A stretch of 46,771 bases of DNA, taken from NCBI GenBank assembly GCA_013202285.1, contig JABMRV010000057.1:1-46771 (forward strand), in the 5' to 3' direction. The notes under the pieces were generated by a model. It saw only the letters and a program-made list of their open reading frames with translations. It searched no databases and was not told where the DNA came from. Origin of the DNA: a bacterium. Lineage in GTDB: Bacteria; Electryoneota; AABM5-125-24; Hatepunaeales; Hatepunaeaceae. Every line of letters starts with the position of its first letter. Position 1 is the stretch's first letter. The translations under genes and the position numbers were made by a program. Positions 4,786-42,722 of this stretch are shown here, one piece after another.

Positions 4786-4863
4786 TTTGGGCTCCCTGGT
4801 CAAGTGATGTTGTCGAGAAGAACTGAATGCTCTACGAGGTTTTAAAATGTGTGAAGTTTTTTG

Positions 4864-4892
4864 AGTTTAATCTAATTGTAATTATATGTCAA
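4864..4892 (-). promoter_or_regulatory. Sigma-70-like promoter candidate for the 1,179-aa/LamG genes
   Basis: The reverse strand reads TTGACA (4892..4887), a 17-nt spacer, then TAAACT (4869..4864). A perfect TATAAT also abuts the TTGACA (4886..4881). The site is about 80-100 nt upstream of the ATG at 4785. Consensus matching only; the promoter rules of this lineage are unknown. Confidence 0.35.
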
Positions 4893-5014
4893 CCTTTCTT
4901 ATTCACTACCTCACGGTCAGTTAAGTTTGAGATATGTTGAATCAGAAGCGGTGATAGTTCGAACGGTGGTTTTGGGGGGTTGGATCAGGGAATAGCAGCG
5001 GTATTAGTAAAAGT

Positions 5015-5443
5015 TCACCAACCCTTCTTCTTCATTACCTTTGCTGCACTGTCTTCCATCCGTTTTTCAAACAACGCTGCTTTACTCTTCTGTGCTTCCA
5101 TTACCAAATCTATCAACGTATTGATATCGGCAGGTTTTTCGAGGAATTCAATTGCGCCAAGCTTAAGTGCTTCTACACTTTTCTGTACAGTCGCTCTTCC
5201 TGTCAGCAACACAACCTGAGAATCGGGACTTTCCAGAAGTATTAACTTCAACGTCTCAATTCCATCCATACCGGGCATTGCCATATCAAGTATAATCGCA
5301 TCATAGTATTTTCCTTTTACCCGATTGATCCCTTTAATTCCACTCTCAGCAGTATCAACCTCGAGTCCGCGAGCTTCCATACGTTCCGCAAGAACTTCAG
5401 TGAAATCAACCTCGTCATCTATTAAGAGCACTCTCGAAGGCAT
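5015..5443 (-). CDS. Single-domain response regulator (CheY-like receiver plus a short C-terminal helix, no output domain)
   Basis: MPSRVLLIDDEVDF...AIILDMAMPGMDG...LLTGRA...KLGAIEFLEKP carries the receiver signatures (acidic pocket DD, phospho-acceptor D, T, K). GGAG lies upstream of the ATG, 22 nt after the preceding gene. Confidence 0.9.
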   Translation of the reverse strand: MPSRVLLIDDEVDFTEVLAERMEARGLEVDTAESGIKGINRVKGKYYDAIILDMAMPGMDGIETLKLILLESPDSQVVLLTGRATVQKSVEALKLGAIEFLEKPADINTLIDLVMEAQKSKAALFEKRMEDSAAKVMKKKGW

Positions 5444-5465
5444 TTGTTAATCTCCTCGGTTTTAT

Positions 5466-6137
5466 CTAATTTTCAAATGGGATAGAAATTTCAATCACGG
5501 TTCGGTCAGGATCATTGAAGATTTTCACCGTATCGCTTATACGCTTCAGCAGTAAATTGTAGTATTCGACATCAAAACCATCGTTTCCGAAATCTCTTGA
5601 AACACATTCAACCGATAGGGTTGCGTGCGATTCCCTTGAGTCAATTGAGACGGTGATTGTTTCGTCGGGATTTGAGACGGCTAATACCCGCCTGATGTAT
5701 AAGTAAAGCGCTTGCTGCACAAGAAAAGGACTGTTCATTATAGTAATCGGTTCGTTTGAAAACCGTGTTTTGAGATCGACTTTTTTCATATCTGCAAAAC
5801 GCTGACAGAGATCGGTCAGATTTTCCACCAAACGGTTTATCTCAAACTCACAAACGGGATCATCGACACCGTGAGCGAATGTATTAAGCCGTTTGATAAT
5901 ATCGACACCGCGCTGGGTCTGATTTGATACTCTATCGGCGAAACGCTGCAACCGTTCGTTCGGTATCGGTTGACCACTCTCAACCCCGTTCAGAAGATCA
6001 TCAAGTAATCCGGCTGTCTGATCTATAATTGAAATAACATTGTTTAATTCATGCGAAACAGATGCTGTTATGGCACCGAAGAATGCCAGACCATTTTCAC
6101 GCAACATCTGCTCCTGGTTGAGATCGTCATTGAGCAT
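5466..6137 (-). CDS. Histidine-kinase-like protein with an H-box but a degenerate ATP-binding domain (candidate Spo0B/ChpT-type histidine phosphotransferase)
   Basis: ITASVSHELNNVISII is a HisKA H-box. The C-terminal half (QQALYLYIRRVLAVS...ECVSRDFGNDGFD...) lacks a recognisable N-box Asn, a DxGxG G1 box and a GxGLGL G2 box. All of these are present in the neighbouring kinase 6513..8222. There is no TM segment. The start overlaps the stop of the upstream receiver gene by 11 nt. Confidence 0.75.
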   Translation of the reverse strand: MLNDDLNQEQMLRENGLAFFGAITASVSHELNNVISIIDQTAGLLDDLLNGVESGQPIPNERLQRFADRVSNQTQRGVDIIKRLNTFAHGVDDPVCEFEINRLVENLTDLCQRFADMKKVDLKTRFSNEPITIMNSPFLVQQALYLYIRRVLAVSNPDETITVSIDSRESHATLSVECVSRDFGNDGFDVEYYNLLLKRISDTVKIFNDPDRTVIEISIPFEN

Positions 6138-6504
6138 TTACACTCCGTATGGCTTCTTTCATCTTTGCGATCAGGTCTTCAAGATCGATCGGTTTTTCGA
6201 GGTAATCAAATGCTCCTTCAGGCTTCTCATCATGCTCCTCACCAAGGGAACCGTGACCGGTGATCAGCAGAACCGGAAGCCGTGGATGTTCCTTTTCTAT
6301 GATCTTCATCACTTCAGTGCCCGACATCACCGGCATCTTCAGGTCGAGAACAACAACATCATAAGTGTTTTTGCGCATCATCTCAACAGCATCGGAACCG
6401 TTGAGAGCAAAGTCGGCTTCCATACCGCGATACTCAAGTCGCTCAACCAGAGTTGTAACCAACTCCTCCTCGTCATCAATAAACAAAATCTTATATTTAT
6501 CCAT
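6127..6504 (-). CDS. Single-domain response regulator (receiver only)
   Basis: MDKYKILFIDDEEEL...VVVLDLKMPVMSG...LLITGHG...GAFDYLEKPID. A GGAGG RBS overlaps the stop codon of the upstream kinase gene. Confidence 0.9.
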   Translation of the reverse strand: MDKYKILFIDDEEELVTTLVERLEYRGMEADFALNGSDAVEMMRKNTYDVVVLDLKMPVMSGTEVMKIIEKEHPRLPVLLITGHGSLGEEHDEKPEGAFDYLEKPIDLEDLIAKMKEAIRSVNAQ

Positions 6505-6512
6505 AAATCCTC

Positions 6513-8222
6513 CTAATACTCCTTTTTCTTAATCGGTAGTGTCACTATGAAGCGGGTTCCTTCTCCGATCACACTTTCGACTTCGATCTCCCCCCCTAAC
6601 TTGTGGACGATATCATTGGTTATTGATAACCCAAGACCAGTACCAAACTCACCTCTGGTTGAATAAAACGGCTCGAAAATGTGCTCAAGATTCTCCTCGG
6701 GAATACCGGAGCCATTATCGGATATAAAGATACTAACTATGTCGCCTTCACGCTTGGCGGCTGAGACATCGATTTTCCCACCATCCTCAACTGCTTTGAA
6801 CGCATTATTCAGTATGTTGAGAAATATCTGCTGCAGTTGACCCCGATCACTTTCAATCGCGGGAAAATCAGCGGGGAAATTACATTTAATGTCAATGTTT
6901 CGATGAAGGGCTTCTTTTCCGAGAAAGCCCGCTACTTCACTCATAAGATGATCCAGATCGATAAGCTCCTTCCCAACGTCCATGCGCTTGGCGAAGCCTA
7001 ACAATCTATGAGTAACAGCGCTGCACCTATCAACCGATTTATGAATAGAGTTGACGAGTTCAATCGTCTTTCCCTTACGCGGGTAATCCTCGCTGAATTC
7101 AGCAATGTCCTTTAGAAGTCCCGCCTTCTCATTGATTATGGCGAGTGGGTTGTTTATCTCGTGTGCCACACTCGCTGCCATCCGACCGATTGTAGCCATT
7201 TTGTTGGTGTATTCTATGTTATGAAAAGCCTTGGCGCGCAGCTGATCTGCCTCACGAAAACGTTTTACCAGATAGGTCGCTCGCCAGTACACGAAGAGCA
7301 ATATCAGGATCACGCAGAACAGTAGAAACCACAGCAGGTCAGATCGACGCGAAATCCAATGTCCGAAAGGACTTTCATGCTGTTTCAGTGCAATAAGTAT
7401 GAAAGGAGTATTCTTAATATGGGCATATCCGAAAGTTATCCATTCTCCATTCTTCTTGAACTCCTCTATTACTTCAAGGTTACGAACTGGAAAAGACACC
7501 TCGAAGTTCATCTTATCCAGAACACCACCGCTGAATGCGGATGAAGTCTGTAGTATTCCATCTTTATTGATAATGAACACATCCGTTGAACGACTTAGAT
7601 GTTGTGAAAAAATCTGCTCCTTAAAAAGATCCATATCAATGGTTGCTCTCAAAACATAAAACTCACCATTTTGCTTCTCATCCTTGACAGCTATGACAAA
7701 ATGAGGGAAATTCCTATACCCCATGAAAACATCGCTGACAAATACCCCGCGCAGGTTGACTTCATGGAACCAGGATTGATCCTTGTAATTCCTGCCTTTC
7801 AGATTGTAGGGACCACTGTAAAACAACTGCGCACCGTCAGAATCGATGAGACCGAGATCGATGAATCCACCGAACGAACTCTTCAGGTTGCGAAAGGTCG
7901 ATGATAGACTTGCCTCACTGTTCAATCCTTCGAAGTACTGTTCATTAACGATCAGGGTAAGCGCAGACCGTCGTTCCTCGACCATTAGCTCCAGCATGTT
8001 TTTTGTACTGGATATAATCCGGGAGATTCCATACCGGTTTTCCGCACTGAAAGCCTTCTGGTCGAGATGGTAGGTAACCACGGTCATTATCATCAGCGGC
8101 GTCAGCGCTAAAAGCAATGAAAACAGTATGGAAAAACGCTTGAAACGCCGGTATGATCGAACAATGTTGAAGGTCTGCGGCTGCTGGATGTGTTCGGTTT
8201 TTTTCCTGCCCAGAGATGGCAT
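6513..8222 (-). CDS. Membrane sensor histidine kinase with a periplasmic Cache-like sensor domain
   Basis: Two hydrophobic segments (FSILFSLLLALTPLMIMTVV and LLWFLLFCVILILLFVYW) flank a roughly 250-aa Cache-like region (GLIDSDGAQLFYSGPYNLKGRNYKDQSWF...). Kinase boxes follow: H-box SVAHEINNPLA, N-box NILNNAFKA, G1 ISDNGSGIP, G2 GTGLGLSI. Confidence 0.92.
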   Translation of the reverse strand: MPSLGRKKTEHIQQPQTFNIVRSYRRFKRFSILFSLLLALTPLMIMTVVTYHLDQKAFSAENRYGISRIISSTKNMLELMVEERRSALTLIVNEQYFEGLNSEASLSSTFRNLKSSFGGFIDLGLIDSDGAQLFYSGPYNLKGRNYKDQSWFHEVNLRGVFVSDVFMGYRNFPHFVIAVKDEKQNGEFYVLRATIDMDLFKEQIFSQHLSRSTDVFIINKDGILQTSSAFSGGVLDKMNFEVSFPVRNLEVIEEFKKNGEWITFGYAHIKNTPFILIALKQHESPFGHWISRRSDLLWFLLFCVILILLFVYWRATYLVKRFREADQLRAKAFHNIEYTNKMATIGRMAASVAHEINNPLAIINEKAGLLKDIAEFSEDYPRKGKTIELVNSIHKSVDRCSAVTHRLLGFAKRMDVGKELIDLDHLMSEVAGFLGKEALHRNIDIKCNFPADFPAIESDRGQLQQIFLNILNNAFKAVEDGGKIDVSAAKREGDIVSIFISDNGSGIPEENLEHIFEPFYSTRGEFGTGLGLSITNDIVHKLGGEIEVESVIGEGTRFIVTLPIKKKEY

Positions 8223-8270
8223 ACTGTCACACTTTATATGAGTTTATTAATGTTACAAAAATCTGATCGA

Positions 8271-9518
8271 TTATTGTTCCTCATCATCCTGCTGCTTCCT
8301 TTTCAATTCCTCTTTCATCTCATTTATTTTCTTATACGCCTCTTTCATCGTGTCGGTGAGGACATCAATATCGACCGGTTTATGAAGATAAGCAAACGCA
8401 CCCAGCTCCTCAGCCAGAGCCTGCTCACGTTCCGAACCGTGTCCGGTCAGAATGATAACTTCAATATTGGGATGCTCCCGTTTTACTCTCTTCAGCACTT
8501 CCAACCCATCGATACCGGGCATCTTGAGATCCAGAACCATAACTTCAGGTTCGTCCTGCTTAACGGATTCGAGCGCCTGCTCGCCGTCATACACGATTGA
8601 AGATCCAAGATTGCGCGCTTCCAGTCGTTCGGACAATGTATGAACAAATTCCTTCTCATCATCCACTAACAGTATCTTTGAGGGCATTGATAGTTTCTCA
8701 GATGGTATAATGGGAGGTGGTGTGAATTTCGGACCTATTCGAGTACGGATTTCCCTGACGCCATTTACACTCGAAGCGATCTGTTTCAGTTTCTTCCTAT
8801 ACTGCTCCAACCGGAGGACATATTTATTGATCTTTATGGTGATGAGACCATCAATTGCTGTAACTTCCTCATCAAGTCCGGCTTCCACGAGCGAGAGGTT
8901 AACCGCAGTAGCTAACTTGAAATCTTCGGCAGCCTTTTGGGATTCCGGAGTCGTCATCACTGCGTCTTTCCCAGCGTTTTCACAAATAATATCGACTGCT
9001 TCAGCAACGGATGTATCCTGCATGGGAATAATAATATCAAACAAGCTCTCATCGTAAGGTGATTTTTCATACAGGAACTTAGTCCATGCACCCAGTTCCA
9101 TATCATCCTTGCGAATGATTTTCTGCGCTTCTTTTTCCGACTTGTTTTCAACACTCATCAAACGGCTAACGCGATAGTTGAAATTGGCGATAACACACAC
9201 CCGCATTACGTATGTCACGGTTCGTGGTATGAGAAGTCCTGCAAAGTCGTGCAGCAGTTGATTGTCTTGTGTAACAAGTTCGGCGAGTACTACTTTAAGA
9301 TATGCAATATTCTTCTCTCGCTCTCTGGTTATTTTGTTCATAAGGGGAATACGACCAGCCATAGTGCTAATGAGCTTTTCAGCGGATACTCCATATCGCC
9401 GTAATACCTCGGTGAATAGTTTCTCATCCAGACGGTTGAGATTCAGTCTTTCAGCAACTTGCTGGACAATCTCATCACCACCACAGTATGATCCGCTGAA
9501 TACCGTGACGACAGCCAT
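8271..9518 (-). CDS. Hybrid response regulator: N-terminal cytidylate-kinase-like (Cytidylate_kin2-type) domain fused to a C-terminal receiver
   Basis: The N-terminus MAVVTVFSGSYCGGDEIVQQVAERLNL resembles the cytidylate-kinase-like family start, with a degenerate P-loop (no GK[ST]). The C-terminus KILLVDDEKEF...VMVLDLKMPGIDG...ILTGHG...AYLHKPVD is a receiver, followed by a charged coiled tail. It is the first gene of the operon. Confidence 0.8.
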   Translation of the reverse strand: MAVVTVFSGSYCGGDEIVQQVAERLNLNRLDEKLFTEVLRRYGVSAEKLISTMAGRIPLMNKITREREKNIAYLKVVLAELVTQDNQLLHDFAGLLIPRTVTYVMRVCVIANFNYRVSRLMSVENKSEKEAQKIIRKDDMELGAWTKFLYEKSPYDESLFDIIIPMQDTSVAEAVDIICENAGKDAVMTTPESQKAAEDFKLATAVNLSLVEAGLDEEVTAIDGLITIKINKYVLRLEQYRKKLKQIASSVNGVREIRTRIGPKFTPPPIIPSEKLSMPSKILLVDDEKEFVHTLSERLEARNLGSSIVYDGEQALESVKQDEPEVMVLDLKMPGIDGLEVLKRVKREHPNIEVIILTGHGSEREQALAEELGAFAYLHKPVDIDVLTDTMKEAYKKINEMKEELKRKQQDDEEQ

Positions 9519-9562
9519 TTTCGTTTCCTTTATATGTTGATGTAAGTCGAATTTTCAAGGTT

Positions 9563-9591
9563 AATATATATATACTGTGAACCTTATGCAA
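9563..9591 (-). promoter_or_regulatory. Sigma-70-like promoter candidate for the phosphorelay operon
   Basis: The reverse strand reads TTGCAT (9591..9586), a 17-nt spacer, then TATATT (9568..9563), about 45 nt upstream of the ATG at 9518 in an AT-rich divergent intergenic region. Confidence 0.3.
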
Positions 9592-9797
9592 GTTAGCGTT
9601 ATCGTTACTTAGGTAATAACTGTTCAAATCAACCATAGCATTCTTGAGCGGCACTGTATAGGATGTTTGAGTTCAAGCGGAGTAAGGTGGCATCTGATTT
9701 GTTCAATCTCCGGAGTATAGGTTTGCTTGACTTGACTGCCTGCCTGTTATCGACTATCTTCTAACGGTAATTTACGTTAGTTCACTTTTACTGTATT

Positions 9798-12011
9798 GTG
9801 GCAGACAAACTTAATTCGATAAACGAAAACTCCGGCAAGAACAGACTCTTTTCCAGGCTGGTTGCCGGTTTATTCCCGTTCACAAGGTGGTTTGAGCATT
9901 ATTCCAAAGCAACCTTCAGGGCGGATTTTATTTCGGGACTGACAGTTGCATTAGTCTTGATTCCACAATCGATGGCTTATGCGCAGTTAGCTGGTTTACC
10001 TTCGTATTACGGGCTTTACGCAGCCTTCCTACCGCCGATTGTCGCCGCTATGTTCGGGTCGAGCCACCAGTTGGCGACCGGACCGGTTGCCGTCGTATCG
10101 TTAATGACCGCTACCGCATTAGAACCCCTCGCTACTTCCGGAAGTGAAGCCTATATAGCGTATGCAATACTCCTCGCCCTTTCTGTTGGCGTGTTCCAGT
10201 TCCTTCTTGGTATCCTGAGACTGGGCTTGGTGGTGAACTTCCTGTCACATCCGGTAGTCAACGGCTTTACAAATGCAGCGGCTCTGATAATCGCCACCTC
10301 GCAGCTTTCCAAGCTGTTCGGCGTCGATGTGGATAAGGCAGTACACCACTATGAAACAGTTATCAACGTTATTAAAGCCGCGCTTGAATCTACTCACTTG
10401 CCAACACTATTGCTTGCAGCACTGGCGTTCGCCATTATGTACGGTTTGAAGAAGCTGAATCCGAGAATCCCCAACGTTCTCGTCGCAGTGGGAGTAACTA
10501 CTGTTATCTCGTGGGCGGTTGGATTTGAGCATAACTATGTTGCTGATATTTCAAGTATTCATTCAGAGAACACCCGACAGGCAATCAGGACATTAAACAC
10601 GAGCTTGACGCAATTAGATTCGATAGTCCAGCATAAAGTCGAAATAAAGAACCTGAGGAATAAAGCTGTCAAGAAGAATGGTGATCACTCAGAAGAAATT
10701 ATAAATCTTCGTTACAAGATATCGATCTGTAACCTGAAAATTGCGGAACTGAAAGAGAAGGCAAGCGCTATTCGTACTCAACTTCGAGCCTGTCGTTTCC
10801 GAGCAGTTGATCCCGCAACTGCGGGAGGAACGACGACTCTGGACTTCTATTCTACCGGTGAGTTACCTTCGGGATTGAAGGATGATGGACGCCGGTGGCG
10901 GTTAAAAATCGGTCATGGACAAGTTGATGAAACCGGCATTACTCTAATCGGTGGTGGCGCCGTCGTTGGCAATATCCCAAGCGGTCTGCCTTCGATAGCA
11001 ATACCGAAGATCGATCTCGGAATCCTTACCGATCTCATCAGTATGGTTATTATAATATCGATCCTCGGTTTCATGGAGGCGATCTCGATCGCCAAAGCTA
11101 TGGCAGCCAGAACCGGACAGCGTCTCGATCCAAACCAGGAATTGATCGGTCAGGGATTGGCAAACATCGTTGGATCATTCGGTCAGAGTTATGCCTGCTC
11201 AGGTTCATTTTCAAGATCTGCCGTAAATTTGGGCGCAGGCGCTCTGACCGGTATGTCAAGCGTCTTCAGCAGTATGATTGTGGTGATTACGCTCTTATTC
11301 CTGACGCCGCTTCTCTATCACCTTCCGCAGTCAGTACTTGCGGCAGTCATTATGATGGCGGTGATCGGGTTATTGAATGTGAAGGGATTTATTCATGCCT
11401 GGCAAGCGCAGAAGTACGATGGAGTGATTGCCATAACCAGTTTTGTCTTTACCATTGCCTTTGCGCCTCACCTCGACAAGGGTTTAATGATCGGAGTGTT
11501 GTTGTCGTTGGGACATTATCTCTTCCGCAACATCAGACCGGATATTGCTCTTCTATCAAAGTTTAGCGACGGTACATTCCGAAGCATCAAACATTGGGGC
11601 TTGAAACAATGCAAACACATTGGCGTAATACGCTTCAACAGCGCCCTCATATTCGCGAATGTGAGTTTTCTCGAAGAACAGATCCTCGAATTGGAAGCAA
11701 GTATGCCGGAATTGAAGCATATCCTGATTGTTTGCAACGGGATAAATGAAATCGATGCTTCAGGAGAAGATATGTTGTCGCTGATTGTTGGACGAATGCG
11801 CGAAGCAGGATACGATGTATCACTGACCGGTTTGAACGACAATGTAAGGGCTGTGCTGAAGCGAACACACCTCTATGAAAAAATCGGCGAAGAACATCTC
11901 TACGGTAATGTCGCCAATGCAGTAATGAATATTCACGCCCAGACGCATCAAGTATCCGACGAGGCATCCTGTCCTTTGATTGAAGTCTGCTTTGAGGGTG
12001 ATGCGGAATAA
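9798..12011 (+). CDS. SulP-family anion transporter with a C-terminal STAS domain and an atypical internal coiled-coil insertion
   Basis: GTG start. FRADFISGLTVALVLIPQSMAYAQLAGLP and VVGNIPSGLPS are SulP core motifs, and there are multiple hydrophobic helices. The C-terminal HIGVIRFNSALIFANVSFLEE...ILIVCNGINEIDASGEDML...GYDVSLTGLNDNVRAVLKR has the STAS pattern. At 737 aa it is longer than the usual roughly 500-600 aa. Confidence 0.9.
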   Translation: MADKLNSINENSGKNRLFSRLVAGLFPFTRWFEHYSKATFRADFISGLTVALVLIPQSMAYAQLAGLPSYYGLYAAFLPPIVAAMFGSSHQLATGPVAVVSLMTATALEPLATSGSEAYIAYAILLALSVGVFQFLLGILRLGLVVNFLSHPVVNGFTNAAALIIATSQLSKLFGVDVDKAVHHYETVINVIKAALESTHLPTLLLAALAFAIMYGLKKLNPRIPNVLVAVGVTTVISWAVGFEHNYVADISSIHSENTRQAIRTLNTSLTQLDSIVQHKVEIKNLRNKAVKKNGDHSEEIINLRYKISICNLKIAELKEKASAIRTQLRACRFRAVDPATAGGTTTLDFYSTGELPSGLKDDGRRWRLKIGHGQVDETGITLIGGGAVVGNIPSGLPSIAIPKIDLGILTDLISMVIIISILGFMEAISIAKAMAARTGQRLDPNQELIGQGLANIVGSFGQSYACSGSFSRSAVNLGAGALTGMSSVFSSMIVVITLLFLTPLLYHLPQSVLAAVIMMAVIGLLNVKGFIHAWQAQKYDGVIAITSFVFTIAFAPHLDKGLMIGVLLSLGHYLFRNIRPDIALLSKFSDGTFRSIKHWGLKQCKHIGVIRFNSALIFANVSFLEEQILELEASMPELKHILIVCNGINEIDASGEDMLSLIVGRMREAGYDVSLTGLNDNVRAVLKRTHLYEKIGEEHLYGNVANAVMNIHAQTHQVSDEASCPLIEVCFEGDAE

Positions 12012-12370
12012 ATAAGAGTAACTCCCCGTTGTCAGACGCCATCGTTGATAGCAATATCTCATCGTGCTGCTGTATTTGACCAATCAAATCTCATTATTAA
12101 AACAACAGAACTTTTTTACAATTTCTGTCCGTATAACATCCTATAGGTTCTGCTTGTTCCACAAGAACGTGCCTCAGTACGGAGGAAAAACCTGTTGTTT
12201 TATGCCGTTTTTTTCCGTATATTCCACACTTTAACAGAATCCATGTCTGATTCAAAATTCAGTTGTTATTTTTCATAGAGTAAAATTAAGTATCAGAAGG
12301 GCTTCCCTCTCCAGCTTTCCTCGTTGAAGTTCCAGCCTTTCTTTCCGTCATCAATCAATAGGATCTGGTC

Positions 12371-12454
12371 ATGAAAAGATCAACAATCATTTCCCCGTGT
12401 TGTCTCTGTGCGGTATTGCTGCTAATAATAACGGCTCCGATTTTAGTCCGGGCT
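12371..12454 (+). other. Sec signal peptide of the giant protein
   Basis: Basic N-terminus (KR), hydrophobic core CAVLLLIITAPIL, and VRA/E cleavage-site pattern. Confidence 0.75.
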
Positions 12455-15400
12455 GAAATCCAGACCACTCCCAAGAGCAGTCATATTTCACCCGCGGATG
12501 AGACTTATTATCAGGAGGTAATACAACCGGCGAAAGCGAGGGGATTACTGACCGAAGCGCAGAATGCTTTCCTTAAACAATACAAGGCTCAACAACGAGC
12601 CGTAGCGAGTCGTATCGTCGATTTCCAGCCTCCATCCCGTGACAATCAGGGTGGACCTGACGAGTCGGGTTACGAATGGCGGGACAGTTACGAGAGACAT
12701 GGTCCGACATACGGCTGGATCGATGTCAGCGGATTCGACGGCGTAATCGACATCGGAATGGGTGACGACACAAACCACGGACCGTTCGACCTCGGCTTCG
12801 ATTTCGTGTATTACGGCGAGACTTTCAACTCAATTCGGATGTGCTCGAACGGCTGGGCATCCTTCACATACGACGGTAGTGACTATCGGTGGACCAATTA
12901 CAACGGATTCCCTGGTGAAGGGGCTCCTGCGAATTTTTTCGCGGTCTGCTATATGGATTATGACCCTGAACTCGGCGGCGGCAGCTACTATTACTGGTCG
13001 GACGAGAATATGGCGGTTCTGACCTGGGAGAACATCCCCTATATCGGCGATGAGAACCTGCGCTGGAGCTACCAGATGATCCTGACCCCGGACGGAATGA
13101 TAACGTACCAGTATGCACAGGTCAGCGGACCGGAAGATGAGATTCTCGTCGGTTTTCAGAATGCCGACGGCAGTCTGGGATTCGCAATTGCGATGGGACA
13201 GCAAGGCTACCTCGAAAATGGACTGGCGATTGGTATCTCGGACAACTGGGTCGATGAGAGGGATGTGAGTGAGGTGGGGTATTTTGATACAGATGGGATT
13301 TCATATCATGTCGCTGTTGCTGGAAACTATTCCTTTATAGCAGATGGTGAAAGTGGTCTTAGAATAATTGACATATCTAACCCTGAGAATCCCGACGAAT
13401 TAAGTTCCATAAATACACCAGATGTTGCTCGTGATGTTGCGGTTCTCAACAACTATGCTTATGTGGCAGATTTTAGTAGTCTTCGAATCGTTGACATTTC
13501 TGATCCGGCGAATCCATCTGAGGTTGGATCATACGATACACCAGGAAATGCTATGAGCGTTTCTGTTCGTGGAAATTACGTTTACGTTGCAGACCTCGAA
13601 AGCGGTCTTCGTATAATTGATGTATCCGATCCTGAAAATCCTGATGAAATTGGGTTTTTTGATACCCCTGATAGGGCGTGGGGTGTCACTGTGATAAATC
13701 ATTACGCATATGTGGCAGATGATCAGAGTGGACTTAGGGTGATTGACATTTCAGATCCGGAGAATCCGAGTGAGGTAGGCTCTTACAACACCCTAGGAAA
13801 TGCTGGTGATGTCATAGTTGTTGGTGATTTTGCCTATGTGGCTGATGGCAGAAGTGGTTTACATGTAATTGATATTTCTGACTCTCAAAATCCGAGCCTG
13901 ATAGGAACATATGATACACCAGGTGGAGCTGGTGATGTTACTGTCATCGGAAACTATGCTTATGTTGCTGATGATCAAAATGGTCTATGTGTAATTGACA
14001 TTTCTGATCCGAACAATATGGAGGAGGCTGATGCTTACGATACACCGGGAAATTCATGGGGTGTTTTTGTAATCGACGATTATGCCTACGTTGCAGATCA
14101 GGAAAGCGGTCTCCGCATCCTCGACGTATCGGACTTCGAGAAGCCGGACATGGCGTTGTCAACTAACCAATTGGACTTCGGTGAGGAGTGGGTCGGTTAC
14201 AGCGATGACATGATCATCGAAATCCGGAACAACGGCGACGCCGACCTGACCGTATCGGACGTTCATGTTGGGGCGGTCGGCTTCAGTACCGATTTTAACG
14301 GCTGGTTTGTTGTCGAACCGGATGGTGTTCATCAACTGACCGTCACTTTTGCGCCCGAAGGAACGGGCAATTTGGGGGGGGGGCTGACTATTATTTCGGA
14401 TAATCCCGGCTGGATAGAACAGGGCATGGTCGATTTGAACGGCATCGGCAGGGACAACCCGCCGGTGATGGTCGTTAATCCGGACGCTATCAGCACGGAT
14501 ATCAATATACCGGACAGCGAAGAGCACACGTTGACGATTTCCAATGGCGGTAGTTCGGTCCTTGAATTCGAGATCTTTCACAGGACAACCAGCAGACCTG
14601 CACGCGATGAAAATGTCCGTACATTACGCAGTATCACCTCCTCTAATTCACCCCTCCGAAACCCAGGGGAAGTAATCGATCTTTCCACTCCTGAAAACAT
14701 GGATGTGAGCGAGGTCGGTGCTCCACGTCGAGACCAGTTGGAACCGGGTTTCCTTGGTCGATACTACCACACCCAGGCAGATGCCAGTCCGCCGTTCCCG
14801 GGAGAGCTGATCATGGAGCGCATCGATGATCTGATCAACTTCGACTGGGGCGATGGCGGTCCTGGCGGCGGCGTGAGGAATGACAACTTCGGCGCACGTT
14901 GGACAGCCTTGTTCACTGTTGAGGAAGCCGGAGAATACACCTTCCGGGTAACCTCCGATGACGGTCAGAGGCTATATATCGACGGACAGCGGATCATCGA
15001 CAACTGGGTTGACCATGGCATGGAGAATCACGACATGGCACTCGACCTCGAACAGGGCGACCACGAGATTACGTATGAGTTCTACGAGAACAGTGGAGGT
15101 GCCGGGGCTCAGCTCCGCTGGATGCCTCCCGGGGAGGGTCAGTTCGAATTCATGCAGGGCTTCCCGTTTATCCCGTGGCTTACATGCGACCCAAACGAAG
15201 GCACCATCGAGGCTAATCAACAGATGGATATAACCGTAACCCTGATAACCGATGATCTTATCGAAGGCAGATATGAAGCAGATATCATTTTCCAGTCGAA
15301 CGATCCGCGATATGAAGAACAAGGTTTCCGCGTTCCTGTGGTGTTAAATACCACCGGTACAGCTCAGATTGAAACTGCTTGGGAACCCGGTTACTTTCAG

Positions 15401-18400
15401 GATCCACCTGTTGTCAATTATAACGTGCAATATGATCCTGAACTATATACGGGTTTCCCCTACCGGATACCGGTCACCATCAGCAATACAGGTAGCGCAG
15501 ACCTTGAAATATCCGGAATTGCATCCGATGAAGATGCCAATCCTGTATTCACTGCAGAACCCACTCAACTGACTATACCACCCGATAGACAGGAAGTTGT
15601 GGACTTCATCTTTAATGCTCCTTTGGATGCACCGGGTGAATACATTGCTGATATGATAATCAGTTCAAATGATGCTGATGAAGTCGATCGGGAATTACAT
15701 ATTCCGGTTTACGCCCAACCTCTCGCCGCTCCTGTAATCACGGTTAACCCAAACAGTATCGAAACAACTATTGACATTCCAAATGAGGAAGTACACACCC
15801 TGACAGTCACCAACGATGGAGGAGTAGGACTTGATTTTCTGATCGAACATACAATAATCCGTGAGCCGGATCGTGATGCGGCGACGCGGGGGTTGCGTAG
15901 AGTTGATCGAAAGAATGTGCCGCAGCGTGATAATCCGGGAGATGAGCTGCGGTCATACAACGTACCATACAATAGTACTTCAGGTCTGGCATGGGACGGT
16001 GAACTGATGTGGGGAAGCGCGTACAGCTCACAGAGGCTGTATGCCCTTGATCCTGAGAATGGTCAGGTTGTTTATGACGTGGCGGTAGGATATTCTCCTC
16101 TGGCGATGACCTTCGACGGCGAACTGCTCTGGGTTGGAGTCTGGCCGGGAAGCAATGTCCGGCTTTATGACCTCGAAGGCAACCAGGTTGAATCGATCAA
16201 CATGCCCTCCTCACCGGTTCACGGTCTGGCTTCAGACCTCGAGAATTACGTATTCCTCAATTCAAACCACACGATTCGGGTCCTCACAATTGACAATCGA
16301 CAGCAGGTCGGTTCCTTTAATCCCAGCGGGGCGATGGCGAATCAGGATTTCTGGAATATTCTGTGGGTGCCCGAGCATCCCGACGGACAACTCTGGGGAC
16401 TGTATCAAAACCGGATGTACCAGGCTTTCGTTGACGAAGATAACAACTGGGCATCCCAGGCTGTTCAGAATTTCGGCATCCGCACAGAATATCAACATGA
16501 CGGTATTGCTCACGATGGTGAAAACATATGGTACGGCATGTGGAGTCCGACAACATGGTATGTGATTGATGATGGTGTTGAAGAATTACGCTGGCTTACT
16601 TACGAGCCGACTGAAGGTTCGCTCGGTTCTGATGAAAGTATGGACATTACCGTTACACTCAATACTGAGGGACTGATCCAGGGCATCTATGAAGCTGACA
16701 TGATCTTCCGGTCCAACGATCCGCAGTATAACGAAGAAGGACTGATTGTTAACGTCCTGATGAGCACTGTTGGAGAGGTGCAAATAGATGTGAGCTGGGA
16801 ACCCGGCTTCGGTGACAATCCACCGGTGGTGGATTTCAACCAGCAGTTTGATCCGGGTTTGTTCACCGGCATCGAGTACCGAATCCCTGTCTTGATTGCC
16901 AATACAGGTAACGCCCACCTGGAGATTACCAACATTGCATCTGACGAACAGGGAGAACCTGTTTTCACCGCTGCTCCCACCGAGTTGATCATCCCGCCCG
17001 ATGGTGAGGAAGTCGTCGAGTTCATCTTCGCCGCACCTCTCAATTCGCCGGACAACTACAACTTCGACATGATAATCTATTGTAACGACATTGACCAGGC
17101 TGACCAGGAGTATCATATCGGTCTGCATGCTGAAGTTGATCTGCCCCCGGTAATAACCGTAACCCCGGATTTGATCGAGGATGAGCTGATCACCGGTGAA
17201 TCGGCACAGCATCAGGTAACACTCGGTAACGACGGTCCATCGACGCTCTGGTACACCAGCGATGCTGTAGTTACCGATCAGCCCGGGAGGGATGTCAATG
17301 AGCGCACTTTGCGGGAGGTTAAACTTACGGGACCGCGCCGTGACAACCTGGGTGATCAGATTGCCACGTTCACCTGGAATCGTGCTCCGGTCAATTATTA
17401 CAAGGCTGGCGCTTCCTATGACCCGGAGACCGGTCGGATGTGGGTTTCAACTTACATCCCCAACTGGCTGGGCGCCATAACCTTTGATGAAGAATACCAG
17501 GAGTTCACTGAGGATGTTCAATCCTGGCAACCCGGTGCACAGAATCCGATGAACATCGCCTGGCTGGACGGCGTTCTATATGTCGTTGCCTGGTCGAACC
17601 AGTGGATCGGCAGGTGGGACGCCGACCGCACCAACCTCGGCAATCTCGACATGCCGCGACATCCAACCGCTATAACGTCCAGCCAGGAAAATGGCTGGTT
17701 AATAACAATTTCTGATGCGGATTGGAACAATCTGAACTTCTATACAGTAAATGGAGACCAGGTGAGCGAGATCCATCGCGTCAACTGGCGGCAGGGACCG
17801 ACAGCCAATCAGCTCAGTCGTGGAATTGGCTGGGTTGACAAACACGATGAAGGTCAGATCTGGATTAACACTCTCAATCACATCTACCAGATGTATGTTG
17901 ACACTGAAAACTGGGATCAGACTGCCACGCATGTCTCCGACTTCGCCTGGAATAACGGCAATCACCAATGGGCTGGAGTGGGTCATGATCGTTTCAACCT
18001 TTGGCTGGGAGCTTACGGACAGCCAAACTGGATTATATATGACGACGGCATTATGGAGCTCTACTGGTTTGACTGGGATCCGCAGGAGGGCTCTATCGAG
18101 CTGGACGGTGAGGAGATCATAACGATTTTCCTGGATGCGGCTGGATTAAACGAAGGTCTTTATGCGGTCGACCTGCATATTCTCTCGAATGATCCCGATA
18201 GTTCCGACGTGGTGGTTCCCGTTTCGATGAATGTGATCGGGATGGCACATATTGATGCGGTATGGGCGCCAGGATTCGATCAGGATCCCTCGGTCGTCGA
18301 TTATAACGTCATGTTCGATCCGAATCTGTTCACCGGTTCGGAATACAGGATTCCCGTTACCATCTTGAATCTGGGAACGGCGAGGCTGGACATATCCGAT

Positions 18401-21400
18401 ATTTCTTCCAGCGAAGAAGCCAATCCCATGTTTACCGCCGAACCTCTCGAACTGCAGATCGCTCCGGGTGAGGAAGATGTTGTCGATTTTATCTTTGCCA
18501 CACCTCTGGATTCTCCCGATGATTACAACTTCGATATGATAATCTATAACAATGATGTCGATGAGGCAGACCGGGAGTATCACATTGCCCTGCATGCCAA
18601 TGTTAACAGACCACCGGTGATCTCGGTCAACCCGCAGGAAGTTATCGATGAGTTGAGTACCGGCGCGGTTGCTCATCACGAGATAACCGTCGATAATCAG
18701 GGTGAGTCGCTGCTGTGGTTTATTGCTGAAATAGATGTAACAGGTGAACCCCAGCGAGATGCCGGCATGAGACCTTTGCGGCGAGTCGGCAGTGCTGCCG
18801 GAACCGGTCGCGACCGCCGGGTCGAACCAGACGACATGGGCTATGAGTGGCGCGACAACCTCGAGGATGACGGTCCGGAGTACGAATGGCTCCTTCGTGG
18901 CGATTTCGAAAACGTACGCGAATGGTCTCTGGGCGATGACGCCAACACCGGCGCACTCCAGCTTGGTTTCACCTTCCCATTCTGGGATCAGGAGTATAGC
19001 CAGGTTTATCTCGACACCGACGGCTATATGTCGTTCACCTATGCGGGGACGCAGTATAACTTCTCAGGAGAGATTCCAAATTACCCGTTGGCTGCCAATC
19101 CGGGAAGCCCAAACCACTCCATGATAGCGCAGTACCAGACCGACATGACGTCGGGAACGGAGATATGGTACTGGACTAACGAGGAAGATATGGCGGTGAT
19201 GTGGTGGGCGGGGAATCATCAGTACTATCACCAGGTCATCCTCTATGACAATGGTTATGGTGTCATGCAGTACGGTCAAAATGCCAACGGCAGATCAGCC
19301 TACGTGGGGATTAACCTCGGCGACGGCGAACATGGCTGGTATGTCGCCGCGCCTGACCAGAATTACCTCGTTCCCGGGCGGGCAATTGCCTTTGGTCCGG
19401 CTAACGTCTGGTCGATCTGGATAACACTTGACCCGCTGGAGGGCGATGTACAGCCCGGAGCTGATCCGATGGCGCTCGATATGACTCTCGATGCCTTCGG
19501 TCTCGATGAAGGTCAATACACCGCGGAAGTTCTGTTCACATCGAACGACCCGGAGACGCCCGGGGTGATACTCAACGTTACTATGAATGTAATAGGTGCA
19601 CCTGACATCCTTCTCGAATGGGAACTCGGCTGGGTGGAAGATCCCTTTGAGGACAGCATCATCGACTGGAACGCTTATTTCGATCCCGATTTATATTCTG
19701 GTTTCGATTATGAAATTCCTGTCACTGTAACAAACGAAGGCGTAGTTCCTCTTGAGATTACTGAAATATCATCAAGTGAAGGTGGAGACCCGCTCTTTAC
19801 ATCCAATCTAATTGATGTGCTTACTCTCGATCCGAATGACCAGGCAGTCGTCACCCTCACATTCAATTCCGTGAATCCAGGCGACTTCGGAGCCGATGGT
19901 GATGAGCTCTATATGGTATTCTACTCCAACGATCCGCTTGATCCGGAGGTCAACGTTCGAGTGCATGCGCAACCGGTTGGACCACCTGTAATGGTTGTGG
20001 ATCCTGATGCAATCCAGACCGAGATTGCTATACCCGGCAGTGAAGAACATGTCCTTACGGTGACCAACAGTGGTGATAATATCCTTACCATCGAGATCGA
20101 AAAGGAGATCCTCGCCATGCCGGAGAGGATGCCCGCAGATCGCGACGTAATCTCCCGTACACTGCGCAGCGTTAACCGCGATGAACCTCGTCGAGATGCT
20201 CTTGGTGACCAGTTGGGAGAATATACCTGGAATAATGCACCGATCAACAGGTACAAGAATTGCGCTTACGACTATAATAACAAGTGGATGTGGCTCGGTA
20301 CTTATAGCACGAACTGGATCAAGGCAATCTCGTTCGATGATGATTATCAGCAATTCACTACCGAATTCAACGACTTCCGACCTGCCGGAAACCCGATGGA
20401 TATGGGCTGGTATAACGGTATCCTCTATGTCCAGCCCTGGGCTAACAACTTCTTGCTAAGATACGATGCCGATGGTAACAATCTCGGCAACGCCAACTTT
20501 AACTTCCGTCCTGCCGGAGTGGCGTTCAGCCACAAGATGGGTTTGATTTTCGCGCTGGAGGACTCACCAGACAACAACCGGAACATCCATGTTATGGAGA
20601 TAGATGAAAACGGGTATCCAGATCAGCAGATCGGTTTGATCGACAACTACCGTCCGATGTGCAACAACCAGTGGATGCGTAACGTCGAATGGGTCGATGC
20701 ACATCCCGATGGTCAGTTGTGGATACACACCTCCTCGAGGGCGCTCTATCAGATCTCGGTTGACACGGATAACTGGCAGGCGATCGAGCTCACTTCACAG
20801 TTGTCCAACTTCGGCAGCAACCAGGAGTACGACGGAGTTGCGCACGACGGGTACAACCTGTGGCACGGCGGTTATAGCCTGGATCGCTACTACATCATCG
20901 ATGATGGGGTTGAAGAGATTTACTGGCTGATATTTGAACCTGATGAGGCTACTCTTAACGCTGACGATAGTACCGAGATTCACGTTTATCTTAACACTGA
21001 GGATCTCATTGAGGGCAGATATGAAGCCGATCTTGTATTCACCTCAAACGATCCGCGATACCAAGCGGAAGACTTCCGGGTCAATATCGTATTGAATACC
21101 ATTGGAGAAGCCCAAATTGAAGCGACCTGGGTTCCCGGCTGGGATGAACAGGATCCGGTCGTCGATTACAATGTCGCGTTTGATCCCGACATGTTCAGCG
21201 GCGCTTCATATACGATTCCGGTTATTATCGCGAATATTGGCAATGCCAATCTTGAGATAACGAACATCCAGTCGGATGAAGGTGGAGCTCCGGTGTTTAC
21301 CGCAGAACCTACCGAACTTGTGATCCCACCAGACAACGAAGAAATCGTCGTATTCAGATTTGAAGCTCCCATCGATGCACCGAACAACTACAATGCCGAC

Positions 21401-24400
21401 ATGATCGTCTATTGCAACGACGCCGACGAAGCGGATCAGGAGTATCATATCGCGCTGCATGCTGATGCCGCAAGCCCACCGGTGATAACCGTCGATCCCA
21501 TGGAAATCATAGACGAGCTGACAACCGGTCAGGTGGTCGAACATGAAGTCACGGTTGGTAACGACGGACAGTCAACGCTTCGTTTCACGTCGGAGTTCGA
21601 GATAACACAGGAGCCCGGTCGTGATCTCGGCGGAAGAAGCCTGCGCAGCGTCCATCGTACTGGACCGCGACGCGACGCCGTTGAGGATATCCAGGATATG
21701 ATGTTCGCCGTTATTCAGGACGGGGAAGCCTGGGGATGGCTCGACGACGTGATGATGCAGCAGGATCCTCTCCTCGACAGGAACGCGAACTATGTTACTT
21801 TCAGAACTGCAGACACCTGGAACAGTATTGATTTCGAGGAATATGACGTCATTGTTTACCCCGGCAATCGTCAATCCGCCAATTTCTACACTGCTTATAA
21901 CAATAACCTCGCACGGTTCACCGAATATCTTGACGACGGAGGTGCTGCTTATACGGAGACCTCGGATAGTAATGCTCCGATCCGCACTCCCGGCGGATTC
22001 AACAACGACCAGGGAGGCGCTTCCAACGGTGTACTGGTAGTCAGTCCCAATCCTCAGGATGACAATTACAGTTTATTTGCCGAGATCTGCCAGAGTACAC
22101 AAAACAACAACTGGAACGAAGGGGAGGTTATCGAGGGCAATTCATGGCTGCATGGATCATATTCCATCGGTCAGTTCGATAATGCCGTTGGCAATGGCAC
22201 TATCGAATGGTACCAAATGATAGCCACTCCGCAAGGATCTCAACATGCCGGAGCGATAGCTTATGGTTTAGGTGACGGCTGTGTACTCGCAGTGAGTCAC
22301 CCTATCGGTCACTGCTGGCGGTACTATAATCAGGAAGGTATGTGGGGCGGCATCGCTGCTGAGATTCTCTACTACCTTACTGAATCTGTTGCCGAAGGTT
22401 GGTTCAGCCACGATCCTGTAGAAGGCGAGATTCAACCTGGCGGCGATCCTGTAGTGATAATAGTAACACTCAACGCCGCAGGATTAGATGAGGGTGACTA
22501 CGCCGCTGAACTGCGGATTAACTCCAACGATCCCATCGATCCGCAGGTGATAGTCGCTATTTCTTTCACTGTCACCGCGGCTCCGGATCTGGTTCTCGAA
22601 TGGGAGTTGGGCTATGTGGAAGATCCGTTCGAGGACAGCATACTCGATTGGAATCTTTATTATGATCCTGACTTCTATACCGGCGTTGATTATGAAATAC
22701 CGGTTACGGTTATGAACGAAGGAGTCATAGCGCTTGAGGTAACCGAAGTCTCTTCTTCGGAGGAGGGCGAACCGCTTTTCACATCCGATCTTGCCGATGT
22801 GCTGACACTTGCCCCGGGGGAGGAAGCGGTGGTTACGCTGACTTTCTATTCCGATCAGGCTGGCGAATTCGGCGCTGACGGTGAAGAGCTTTACATGGTC
22901 TTCTATTCGAACGATCCGAACGAAGAGCAGCTTACCGTGCGGGTGCATGCCACAGTTATCGCGGGTCCGAATATCCTGGTTGACCCACAGGCGATTGAAG
23001 ATGCCATGATGACACTGCATACCTCCAACCATCTCCTCACCGTTGGAAATGACGGCGGTAACCCGCTTCGATTTGAATTTGAATTGGAGGTATTGGCTGA
23101 ACCGGAACGCGACATTGCTTCTCGTACATTGCGCCGAATACATCGGGGCAATCCACGACGAGATGCTCTTGGTGACCAGTTGGGAGAATACACCTGGAAT
23201 AATGCCCCGATCAACAGGTACAAGAGCGCCGCTTACGACTTCAACAATGAATGGATGTGGCTCGGTACTTACAGCCCCAACTGGATTAAAGCTATCTCGT
23301 TCGATGATGATTACCAACAGTTCAACACCGAATTTAATGATTTTCAACCTGCCGGAAACCCGATGGATATGGCGTGGTATGACGGCATACTATACGTCAT
23401 TCCCTGGGCAAATAATTTCTTGTTGAGATATGACTCACAGGGCAATCGTCTCGGCAACGCCAATTTCGGTTTTCAAACCTGCGGGATTGCAGTTAGTCAA
23501 GAGCTTGGTCTGCTCTTTGTTCAAGAGACCTCACCCAACAACAACCGGAACATCCATGTTGTAGAGATAGATGAAAACGGGCTTCCCGGTCAGCAGATCG
23601 GTTTGATCGACAACTACCGTCCAATGTGCAACAACCAGTGGATGCGCAACTGTGAGTGGGTCGATGAACATCCCGACGGTCAGTTGTGGATACATACCTC
23701 ATCGAGGGTGCTCTACCAAATCTCGGTTGACACGGATAACTGGCAGGCGATCGAGCTCACTTCACAGTTGTCCAACTTCGGCAGCAACCAAGAGTACGAC
23801 GGAGTTACGCACGACGGGCTCAACATGTGGCACGGCGGTTATAGTATGACCAACTATATCATTTTCGATGATAACGTCGAGGAACTCCGCTGGCTCATGC
23901 TCTATGAAGACGACATTTCTCAAGCCAATCCGGCGGACTGGGTAGTGGTTAGATACAATGAATATGAAATCGAGCCCAATCAGGAGTTGATTTTCACAGT
24001 ACGTTTGAATTCAACCGATCTGCTTGTTGGTGATTATGAGGGAATAGTCCACATCTTCAATAACGATCCGAATATCGAAGAGCAGGATTTCGAGGTTCCC
24101 GTTCTGCTTCACGTAACAGGTATAGCCCAGGATATCGAGGTTTCATGGGCGGAGGAGAATGGTTTCCCAACTTCGATCGACTGGAACAGTGCGCACGAGG
24201 AATTGTACGTCGGTCAGCCTTACGATATGATTCTCACCGTTGGGAATTCAGCGGACAGTGACGGCGATCTTGTCATCGAGGATATTGTTGCAGACGATAA
24301 CAGTTTCTCAATCGATCCGGTCGGATTTACACTGAGCTCCGGCGAAACGCAGGATGTGATAATAACATTTGAAACTGCAGACGTCCCCGGTGAGTTCGAA

Positions 24401-42529: not shown

Positions 42530-42542
42530 ATAATTCGTACCA

Positions 42543-42610
42543 CAGTCCCGACGCTTCGGGACTGCGGTCGTTAGTACTGGTTTTCACTGCAGAGTGGGGA
42601 CACTCTGCAG
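42543..42610 (+). other. Two perfect GC-rich hairpins immediately after the giant ORF stop
   Basis: CAGTCCCG-acgctt-CGGGACTG (42543..42564) and CTGCAGAGTG-ggga-CACTCTGCAG (42587..42610). Neither is followed by a T-run. Confidence 0.6.
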
Positions 42611-42636
42611 CACATAAGAGTGTCTATCCACCTCTA

Positions 42637-42683
42637 CCCCGGCATTCCTTCTGAAACAGCGAGTGCCGGGGTTTTCTTTTTTT
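42637..42683 (+). terminator. Rho-independent terminator of the giant gene
   Basis: CCCCGGCA (42637..42644), a 19-nt loop, TGCCGGGG (42664..42671), followed by TTTTCTTTTTTT (42672..42683). Confidence 0.75.
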
Positions 42684-42722
42684 GGCAAATATAAGAAACC
42701 GTTTCGGAAGCGATACTGCTGC

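What the first reader, a model, noticed from the sequence alone, without database searches (positions are those of the whole stretch)
14374..14383. G10 homopolymer in the giant ORF where a slip in either direction gives an almost immediate stop: candidate phase-variation switch
The sequence is aat ttG GGG GGG GGG ctg act att att tcg gat aat, codons 668-671 (LGGG). Deleting one G gives ...ggc TGA, a stop in the next codon. Adding one G gives gct gac tat tat ttc gga TAA, a stop after 6 codons. Either slip would leave a secreted fragment of about 670 aa (NIDO-like module, LVIVD propeller and a partial ASH domain). That fragment would lack the remaining 9,380 aa and the T9SS sorting tail. Tracts of 8 or more G are classical slipped-strand mispairing switches for surface proteins in several bacteria. 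Switching off a 30-kb gene would also be an obvious cost-saving or antigenic escape route. It is equally a hotspot for sequencing error, so the true tract length matters.
Basis: partly seen in the sequence, partly recalled or inferred. Interest (0 to 1): 0.65.

Follow-up and report, generated by a model that had tools for sequence, protein, structure and literature searches.

The report
Slippery G10 run in giant gene
A run of ten G's near the start of a 10,052-codon surface-protein gene is real, and public assemblies of the same organism carry nine G's there, which cuts the protein off at residue 671; this is a plausible but unproven example of an ordinary slipped-strand on/off switch.

Summary
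G10 lies at 14374..14383 and encodes LGGG, codons 668-671 of ORF 12371..42529. Losing one G gives a stop at the next codon. Gaining one gives a stop six codons later.

New evidence: Logan contigs of two public freshwater runs (X1, X2) match the window almost perfectly over 40 kb. Both carry G9 at this tract, and that is the only insertion or deletion in those 40 kb. So an in-frame and a truncating allele both appear in public data.

The tract is an outlier. GGG is the rarest Gly codon in the gene (8%). The five other GGG tripeptides avoid it. Only 1.2% of codon-shuffled versions of the gene contain a G/C run of 10 or more.

The downstream gene is functional: dN/dS is 0.19 against a related species.

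Three limits remain. The one relative that covers the site has an interrupted run (G7-T-GG, LGGW), so the tract is not conserved. Only contigs were available, not reads, so mixed lengths within a sample and reversibility are untested. The genome-wide tract background is unknown.

Verdict: a real hotspot for slippage mutations that gives ON and OFF alleles of a giant T9SS cargo gene. It would be a new member of a well-known kind. It is not shown to be an evolved switch. Interest is modest.

The parts
14374..14383 (+). G10 homopolymer: last base of Leu668 (TTG) plus Gly669-671 (GGG GGG GGG). This is the slippage-prone tract. Public runs X1 and X2 have G9 here.
12371..42529 (+). Giant ORF of 10,052 aa. 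It contains LVIVD beta-propeller repeats, many HYDIN/VesB/ASH-type Ig domains, PA14, Big_9, cadherin-like, He_PIG and Big_13 domains, and a C-terminal T9SS sorting domain.
   Evidence: dN/dS 0.19 against orthologue L019 over the last 1977 codons
12371..12454 (+). Probable Sec signal peptide: MKRSTIISPCCLCAVLLLIITAPILVRA, followed by EIQ.
   Evidence: Read directly from the translation. No predictor was run.
14144..14404 (+). First HYDIN/VesB/ASH-type Ig domain (aa 592-678), which holds the tract. In the model, LGGG lies inside the penultimate beta-strand.
   Evidence: Pfam PF22544 and PF15780; AlphaFold2 model with pLDDT 91, strand E79-91 = aa 666-678
14385..14387 (+). TGA that becomes in-frame in the G9 allele (and in G12), ending translation after residue 671.
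14401..14403 (+). TAA that becomes in-frame in the G11 allele (and in G8), ending translation after 677 residues.
42290..42511 (+). T9SS C-terminal sorting domain (Por_Secre_tail / FlgD_ig), lost in any frameshifted allele.
   Evidence: PF18962, 28.6 bits against a cut-off of 27; PF13860, 32.4 bits

Best explanation
The G10 run is a real hotspot for slipped-strand mispairing. It lies 2 kb into a 30-kb gene for a giant cell-surface protein sorted by the T9SS, in an uncultured FCB-group bacterium. With ten G's the whole 10,052-aa protein is made (ON). Loss of one G during replication puts a TGA in frame right after the tract. That yields a 671-aa fragment that ends inside an Ig-domain strand and lacks the T9SS tail (OFF). 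Both alleles occur in public data from near-identical populations. The tract therefore acts in practice as a heritable ON/OFF toggle that could in principle reverse.

Shown here: the tract, the reading-frame consequences, the G9/G10 difference between assemblies, the codon-usage anomaly, and purifying selection on the downstream gene.

Inferred: slippage as the cause, reversibility, the fate of the fragment, and any adaptive value. Because the long tract is absent from the nearest relative, it is more likely a recent hotspot specific to this lineage than an old, conserved contingency locus.
For: G10 and the frame consequences.

X1 has a 2,248-nt contig at depth 7.3 that runs through the tract with one G left out. 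X2 has a 322-nt contig at depth 3.9 with the same deletion. Over window 4400..44399 this is the only indel, alongside about 5 SNPs. The other homopolymers (C7 at 6590, T7 at 8198) agree.

No indexed run holds the 31-mers that span G10, so the Logan assemblies consistently lack G10. The window contig is an independent deposit held by JGI/IMG and NCBI.

The two SNPs downstream in the ORF that separate the G9 contigs from the window are both synonymous. dN/dS is 0.19 against orthologue L019.

GGG makes up 8% of the ORF's Gly codons. The five other GGG tripeptides use only GGC, GGT and GGA. The codon-shuffle test gives P = 0.012 for a run of 10 or more.

Long G/C runs are rare in the background: none of 7 or more in 22.7 kb from congeners, and one C8 in 212.7 kb of all fetched loci.

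Established knowledge: in-frame poly-G/C tracts of 7-8 or more are the standard substrate of translational phase variation (PMC6321876, PMC3786947). Spurious Illumina indels in homopolymers are a problem mainly above about 14 bp (PMC8808543).
Against: Only assembled contigs were available, and they drop minority variants. No sample is shown to hold both lengths, and no reversal has been observed.

Depths are low. The X2 contig ends 11 nt after the tract, so its support rests on few k-mers.

The one orthologue that covers the site (X5, marine sediment, depth 2.7) has G7-T-GG and is in frame. The criterion of conservation in relatives (PMC11466379) therefore fails.

P = 0.012 is modest for a 10,052-codon gene.

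The mismatch-repair status of the organism and its genome-wide tract content are unknown. G9 in X1 and X2 could be a single fixed loss-of-function mutation.
Confidence: 0.55

Rival explanations
1. One-off loss-of-function mutation. The tract is an incidental hotspot. The G9 allele in the X1/X2 population is a recent frameshift that is fixed or in the majority (early pseudogenisation or gene loss). There is no meaningful reversible switching and no selection for the tract.
For: The long tract is not conserved in the nearest relative. X1 and X2 come from one study and share three SNPs against the window, so their G9 may reflect a single event. Divergence is so low (about 5 SNPs in 40 kb) that an inactivated 28-kb ORF would not yet show decay.
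Against: A G9 tract is itself highly prone to slippage, so reversion to G10 is expected at a rate far above the point-mutation rate (general knowledge; PMC2831843 measured about 1000-fold for a poly-A tract). The codon-usage anomaly is not explained. Both downstream SNPs are synonymous, though with only two SNPs this is weak.
Confidence: 0.25
2. Sequencing or assembly artefact. Only one length exists in nature, and either the window or the Logan contigs miscall the homopolymer.
For: Homopolymers are known sources of error (PMC8808543). Depths are low, at 7.3 and 3.9. The X2 contig ends 11 nt past the tract, and X2 has no coverage from 14395 to 14615. That fits a loss of read quality after a G run.
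Against: Two runs give the same G9. The X1 contig passes through the tract and continues for 2 kb. k = 31 spans a 10-nt run, so the de Bruijn graph cannot collapse it. No other homopolymer or indel discrepancy appears in 40 kb. Illumina homopolymer indels are mainly a problem above about 14 bp (PMC8808543). If G9 were the only true state, a 28-kb open frame under dN/dS 0.19 sitting behind a frameshift would still imply a very recent slip at this tract.
Confidence: 0.15
3. Recoding. The genomic state is G9, and the full-length protein is made at a low level by RNA-polymerase slippage on the G run or by -1 ribosomal frameshifting on G GGG GGG. Either route would restore exactly LGGG-L.
For: The sequence G GGG GGG fits the X XXY YYZ slippery pattern. 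A -1 shift on the G9 allele regenerates the G10 protein sequence (direct reading of the sequence). Such rescue of indels is documented in general (PMC5009743).
Against: There is no stimulatory RNA structure downstream (z = -0.05). Both the window and the X5 relative are in frame at the DNA level, so a frameshifted arrangement is not the conserved state. No RNA runs hold the locus.
Confidence: 0.05

Closest known systems
Poly-G/C translational phase variation in Campylobacter jejuni and Neisseria (for example hmbR and hpuAB)
   Same: An in-frame G tract of 8 or more in the 5' part of a surface-protein gene. A change of one base causes a frameshift and early stop. Tract length differs between closely related populations (PMC6321876, PMC3786947).
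   Different: This organism is an uncultured, apparently free-living FCB-group bacterium from a freshwater metagenome. Only one tract is known. Switching rate, reversibility and phenotype are untested. The tract is not conserved in the nearest relative.
Bartonella krasnovii badE adhesin mononucleotide repeats (A9 and G9 contingency locus)
   Same: A long repetitive surface adhesin gene gated by mononucleotide runs. The same two tests apply: codon-shuffle over-representation and conservation in relatives. The G9 repeat of badE is likewise specific to a few strains (PMC11466379).
   Different: badE switching was seen experimentally and repeatedly during host passage. Here there is only a G9/G10 difference between assemblies. 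badE is a trimeric autotransporter, whereas this gene encodes a T9SS cargo of 10,052 aa.
Listeria monocytogenes inlA 5' poly-A tract
   Same: A homopolymer near the 5' end of a surface-protein gene. Frameshifted alleles occur in natural strains, and reversion is about 1000-fold above the point-mutation rate (PMC2831843).
   Different: That tract is poly-A rather than poly-G and lies at codon 8 rather than codon 668. Reversion there was measured experimentally.
Giant T9SS-secreted surface adhesins of Bacteroidota such as Flavobacterium johnsoniae SprB (from my own knowledge, not tested here)
   Same: A very large, repetitive, Ig-domain-rich protein with a Sec signal peptide and a C-terminal T9SS sorting domain.
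   Different: No sequence orthology was shown. The domain set is different (LVIVD, ASH/choice-of-anchor-D, PA14). No poly-G switching of T9SS cargo turned up in the paper library.

Membership tests
Translational phase variation by a simple sequence repeat (contingency locus) | Uninterrupted mononucleotide G/C tract of at least 7-8 inside the reading frame | tested here: met
   G10 at 14374..14383 in codons 668-671. The cut-off is from PMC6321876.
Translational phase variation by a simple sequence repeat (contingency locus) | A tract-length change of one base shifts the frame and truncates the product | tested here: met
   -1G gives 671 aa and +1G gives 677 aa, against 10,052 aa.
Translational phase variation by a simple sequence repeat (contingency locus) | Tract length varies among closely related strains or populations | tested here: met
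   Window has G10. X1 and X2 contigs have G9. This is the only indel in 40 kb. Caveats: contigs only, low depth, and X1 and X2 come from one study.
Translational phase variation by a simple sequence repeat (contingency locus) | High-frequency, reversible switching, with mixed lengths within a population | not testable with these tools
   All runs that hold the locus are kept as contigs, which drop minority variants.
Translational phase variation by a simple sequence repeat (contingency locus) | Tract over-represented relative to a codon-shuffled expectation | tested here: met
   P = 0.012 for a G/C run of 10 or more in 5000 codon shuffles. GGG is 8% of Gly codons, and the other GGG tripeptides avoid it. 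The genome-wide baseline is not available.
Translational phase variation by a simple sequence repeat (contingency locus) | Tract conserved in related strains or species | tested here: not met
   The X5 relative has CTG GGG GGG TGG (G7-T-GG, LGGW), in frame. No other relative covers the site.
Translational phase variation by a simple sequence repeat (contingency locus) | ON/OFF phenotype of the gene product | not testable with these tools
   The organism is uncultured. No RNA or protein data were found.
T9SS cargo protein | N-terminal Sec signal peptide and a C-terminal sorting domain of type A | tested here: met
   PF18962 Por_Secre_tail scores 28.6 bits (cut-off 27) at the extreme C-terminus. 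The signal-peptide-like N-terminus was read from the translation.
T9SS cargo protein | T9SS machinery genes present in the genome | not testable with these tools
   Only the 46.8-kb window is available. A second ORF with a Por tail at 1246..4803 fits a T9SS organism.
Programmed -1 frameshifting or transcriptional slippage | Slippery site plus a stimulatory element, with the shifted arrangement conserved in relatives | tested here: not met
   The slippery-like G GGG GGG is present. There is no downstream structure (z = -0.05). The window and the X5 relative are both in frame.

The most novel reading that the evidence does not exclude
The tract is an evolved contingency locus. It would let a free-living, uncultured FCB-group bacterium stochastically switch off a 30-kb, 10,052-aa T9SS surface protein, for example to escape phage or grazers or to save cost. 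ON and OFF subpopulations would be directly visible in environmental metagenomes. That would extend repeat-based phase variation, described mostly in host-associated pathogens, to giant adhesins of environmental lineages.
Probability: 0.22. Interest if true: 0.55.

Novelty: new member of a known kind. Interest (0 to 1): 0.36.

Why it matters
If the switch is real, it would be a case of homopolymer phase variation outside the usual host-adapted pathogens. It would gate one of the largest bacterial genes, which takes about 30 kb to transcribe and translate, in an uncultured environmental lineage, and it would be detectable from metagenomes alone.

There is also a practical point. The tract decides whether annotation pipelines call this locus one 10,052-aa protein or a 671-aa fragment plus a long leaderless ORF. 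Giant genes that appear split in MAGs may therefore hide this kind of polymorphism.

The mechanism itself is textbook, so the conceptual gain is modest.

Tried and rejected
Orthologue searches around the tract found nothing useful.
- Two protein searches were run. One was swamped by LVIVD repeats. The best hit of the other was 42% identical, from Ca. Hatepunaea.
- Genome and metagenome contig scans with the tract-bearing segment found no relative.
- Scans with the neighbouring SulP gene found homologues at about 60% identity without a syntenic giant gene.

Exact-sequence look-ups also failed.
- The hypothetical G9 (671 aa) and G11 (677 aa) products and the downstream ORFs are not in the collection.
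- Look-ups of the window's own neighbouring genes were not on record.

Other attempts:
- Relatives in 12 further runs (X4, X6-X15, X17) do not cover the tract.
- A downstream RNA structure that could drive programmed frameshifting was not found (z = -0.05).
- A de Bruijn collapse of the homopolymer was rejected, because k = 31 is longer than the 10-nt tract.
- An error-prone long-read origin of the window was rejected, because no other homopolymer or indel discrepancy with the Illumina-type contigs appears in 40 kb.

Full report
**1. Observation**

The window reads ...ggcaatttGGGGGGGGGGctgactatt... with the ten G's at exactly 14374..14383.

I simulated the slips:
- Deleting one G gives ...NLGGG followed by TGA, a 671-aa product.
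- Adding one G gives ...NLGGGADYYFG followed by TAA, a 677-aa product.
- Changes of two G's also stop within a few codons.

The tract is the only G/C run of 8 or more in 46.8 kb. The next longest are C7 and G6.

**2. Is it more than chance?**

A dinucleotide-preserving shuffle of the window produced a run of 10 or more in 4 of 100 trials.

A test that respects coding is sharper. GGG is the rarest glycine codon of the ORF (65 of 812, 8.0%). The five other Gly-Gly-Gly tripeptides use only GGC, GGT and GGA. The only GGG-GGG codon pairs in the ORF are the two in the tract.

I shuffled synonymous codons within the ORF 5000 times, the test used for the Bartonella badE locus (PMC11466379). A G/C run of 10 or more appeared in 1.2% of shuffles, and a run of 9 or more in 6.2%. 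Runs of 7 or more are not over-represented: 1 observed against 1.5 expected.

Sequence from related organisms (22.7 kb) has no G/C run of 7 or more. All 212.7 kb of fetched loci hold a single C8.

The tract is therefore a moderate outlier. The near-immediate off-frame stops are not remarkable by themselves.

**3. The gene**

Pfam finds the following domains:
- seven LVIVD repeats, forming a beta-propeller;
- a HYDIN/VesB/ASH-type Ig domain at aa 592-678, which contains the tract;
- PA14 and many further ASH/choice-of-anchor-D-like Ig domains;
- He_PIG, Big_9, Big_13 and cadherin-like domains;
- a C-terminal Por_Secre_tail/FlgD_ig T9SS sorting domain.

The N-terminus looks like a Sec signal peptide (MKRSTIISPCCLCAVLLLIITAPILVRA, then EIQ; read). 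This is a giant, adhesin-like T9SS cargo.

Its neighbours are a second Por-tailed protein, a Cache histidine kinase, a response regulator, a SulP transporter, a CCA-adding enzyme and a PPDK_N protein. The weak best hits point to FCB-group candidate phyla, for example Ca. Hatepunaea of the Electryoneota. I did not establish the phylum.

An AlphaFold2 model of aa 588-700, built with six paralogous domains of the same protein as the alignment, has pLDDT 91. It places LGGG inside the penultimate beta-strand, aa 666-678. The G9 product would therefore end in the middle of a strand and lack the last strand.

The paralogous domains have FVGS, HAGT, FVGE, VEEI, LSAA or FEAT at this position. GGG is tolerated there but not required.

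Without the C-terminal domain the fragment would not be a T9SS substrate. This is an inference.

**4. Key new evidence: tract length differs between assemblies**

Two public freshwater-metagenome runs from one study (X1 and X2) hold this locus. I laid their Logan contigs on the window.
- X1 has a 2,248-nt contig at depth 7.3 that runs through the tract and continues. It has exactly one G left out.
- X2 has a 322-nt contig at depth 3.9 with the same deletion. It ends 11 nt past the tract, so its support is weaker.

I extended the comparison to window 4400..44399. The tract is the only insertion or deletion. Five SNPs accompany it: 8797, 16063, 32638, 42884 and 43330. The other homopolymers (C7, T7) agree.

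The two SNPs inside the giant ORF downstream of the tract are synonymous.

A search of the run index with 90 nt centred on the tract found no run that holds the 31-mers spanning G10. X1 holds 4 of 7 sampled words and X2 holds 2 of 7.

The window is a 46,771-nt contig held independently by JGI/IMG and NCBI.

So an in-frame allele (G10) and a truncating allele (G9) both appear in public assemblies of populations that differ by about 0.01%.

**5. Is the downstream gene alive?**

A related species has an orthologue of the last 6 kb of the giant gene, at 88.7% nucleotide identity (L019, ENA ERZ24794679). dN/dS is 0.19 over 1,977 aligned codons.

The gene is therefore maintained by purifying selection, and the in-frame state is the functional one. 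Even if G9 were the only true state in nature, a 28-kb open frame behind it would imply a very recent slip.

**6. Conservation of the tract**

Searches by protein, by degenerate DNA pattern and by synteny found no orthologue of the 5' region in the genome or metagenome collections.

I used a 94.6%-identical fragment of the upstream region (L017) to find runs of relatives and laid 13 of them on the tract. One contig covers it, from X5, a marine-sediment run (250 nt, depth 2.7). It spans 14294..14529 without gaps. The other runs do not cover the site.

Rebuilt from the listed differences, the X5 sequence reads AAT CTG GGG GGG TGG CTG, that is NLGGWL. The run is G7-T-GG and is in frame. The surrounding 54 codons show 13 synonymous and 6 non-synonymous codon changes.

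The long tract is therefore not conserved. A single G/T difference separates G10 from an interrupted run that would be much more stable. Without an outgroup the direction of change is unknown.

This fails one of the two criteria for an evolved contingency locus (PMC11466379). The same paper, however, accepts a strain-specific G9 in badE as a working hotspot.

**7. Rival explanations**

- Artefact. Illumina homopolymer indels are mainly a problem above about 14 bp (PMC8808543). k = 31 spans the tract. Two runs agree, and nothing else in 40 kb disagrees. I give this 0.15. It stays open because depths are low and no reads could be inspected.
- One-off inactivation. X1 and X2 share SNPs and come from one study, so their G9 may be a single event. 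The divergence is too small for an inactivated ORF to show decay. I give this 0.25. It shades into the main hypothesis, since a G9 tract should revert readily.
- Recoding. A -1 ribosomal shift, or insertion of one G by RNA polymerase, on the G9 allele would regenerate exactly LGGG-L. There is no stimulatory structure (z = -0.05), and the in-frame arrangement is the one seen in the window and in the relative. I give this 0.05.

**8. Verdict**

The most likely account (0.55) is a true slipped-strand hotspot that produces ON (G10) and OFF (G9) alleles of a giant T9SS cargo gene. It works like the poly-G switches of Campylobacter and Neisseria (PMC6321876, PMC3786947) and like the mononucleotide repeats of Bartonella badE (PMC11466379).

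Membership in the class of evolved contingency loci is not established. Conservation was tested and not met. Reversibility and mixed lengths within a population could not be tested.

It is a new member of a known kind. I found no paper that links T9SS cargo with slipped-strand switching. Interest is modest.

Noticed in passing
window 20622..23590: A Logan contig of X2 joins 20622 to 23590 and skips 2,967 nt (989 codons, in frame) inside the giant ORF. The two sides are paralogous modules about 80% identical that share a 33-nt identical stretch. This is either a de Bruijn mis-join or a real in-frame deletion of one module.
   Followed up: partly
window 1246..4803 (- strand): A second T9SS cargo candidate of 1,185 aa, with a CarboxypepD_reg-like domain and a Por_Secre_tail. 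It has no long G/C tract.
   Followed up: partly
L019 6156..8440, compared with window 42530..42968: The related species carries three extra genes between the giant gene and the CCA-enzyme gene: a PEGA/redoxin protein, a small protein with FlgD_ig and a Por tail, and an AhpC/TSA protein. They are absent from the window.
   Followed up: no
window 7147..7189: A short stretch of the histidine-kinase gene has a k-mer depth of about 30 in X1, against about 7 elsewhere, and the contigs diverge on both sides. It is probably a conserved HATPase motif shared with other community members.
   Followed up: no
runs X5-X15, found through L017: The window's population is in freshwater metagenomes. Its relatives at 80-95% identity appear mostly in marine, estuarine, cold-seep and other sediment runs.
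   Followed up: no
window 12371..42529: The protein database search did not return the 10,052-aa protein itself or its Logan fragments for queries taken from inside it. A neighbouring gene's product was returned. Very long proteins may be missing from the word index, so the absence of giant orthologues in those searches is weak evidence.
   Followed up: partly
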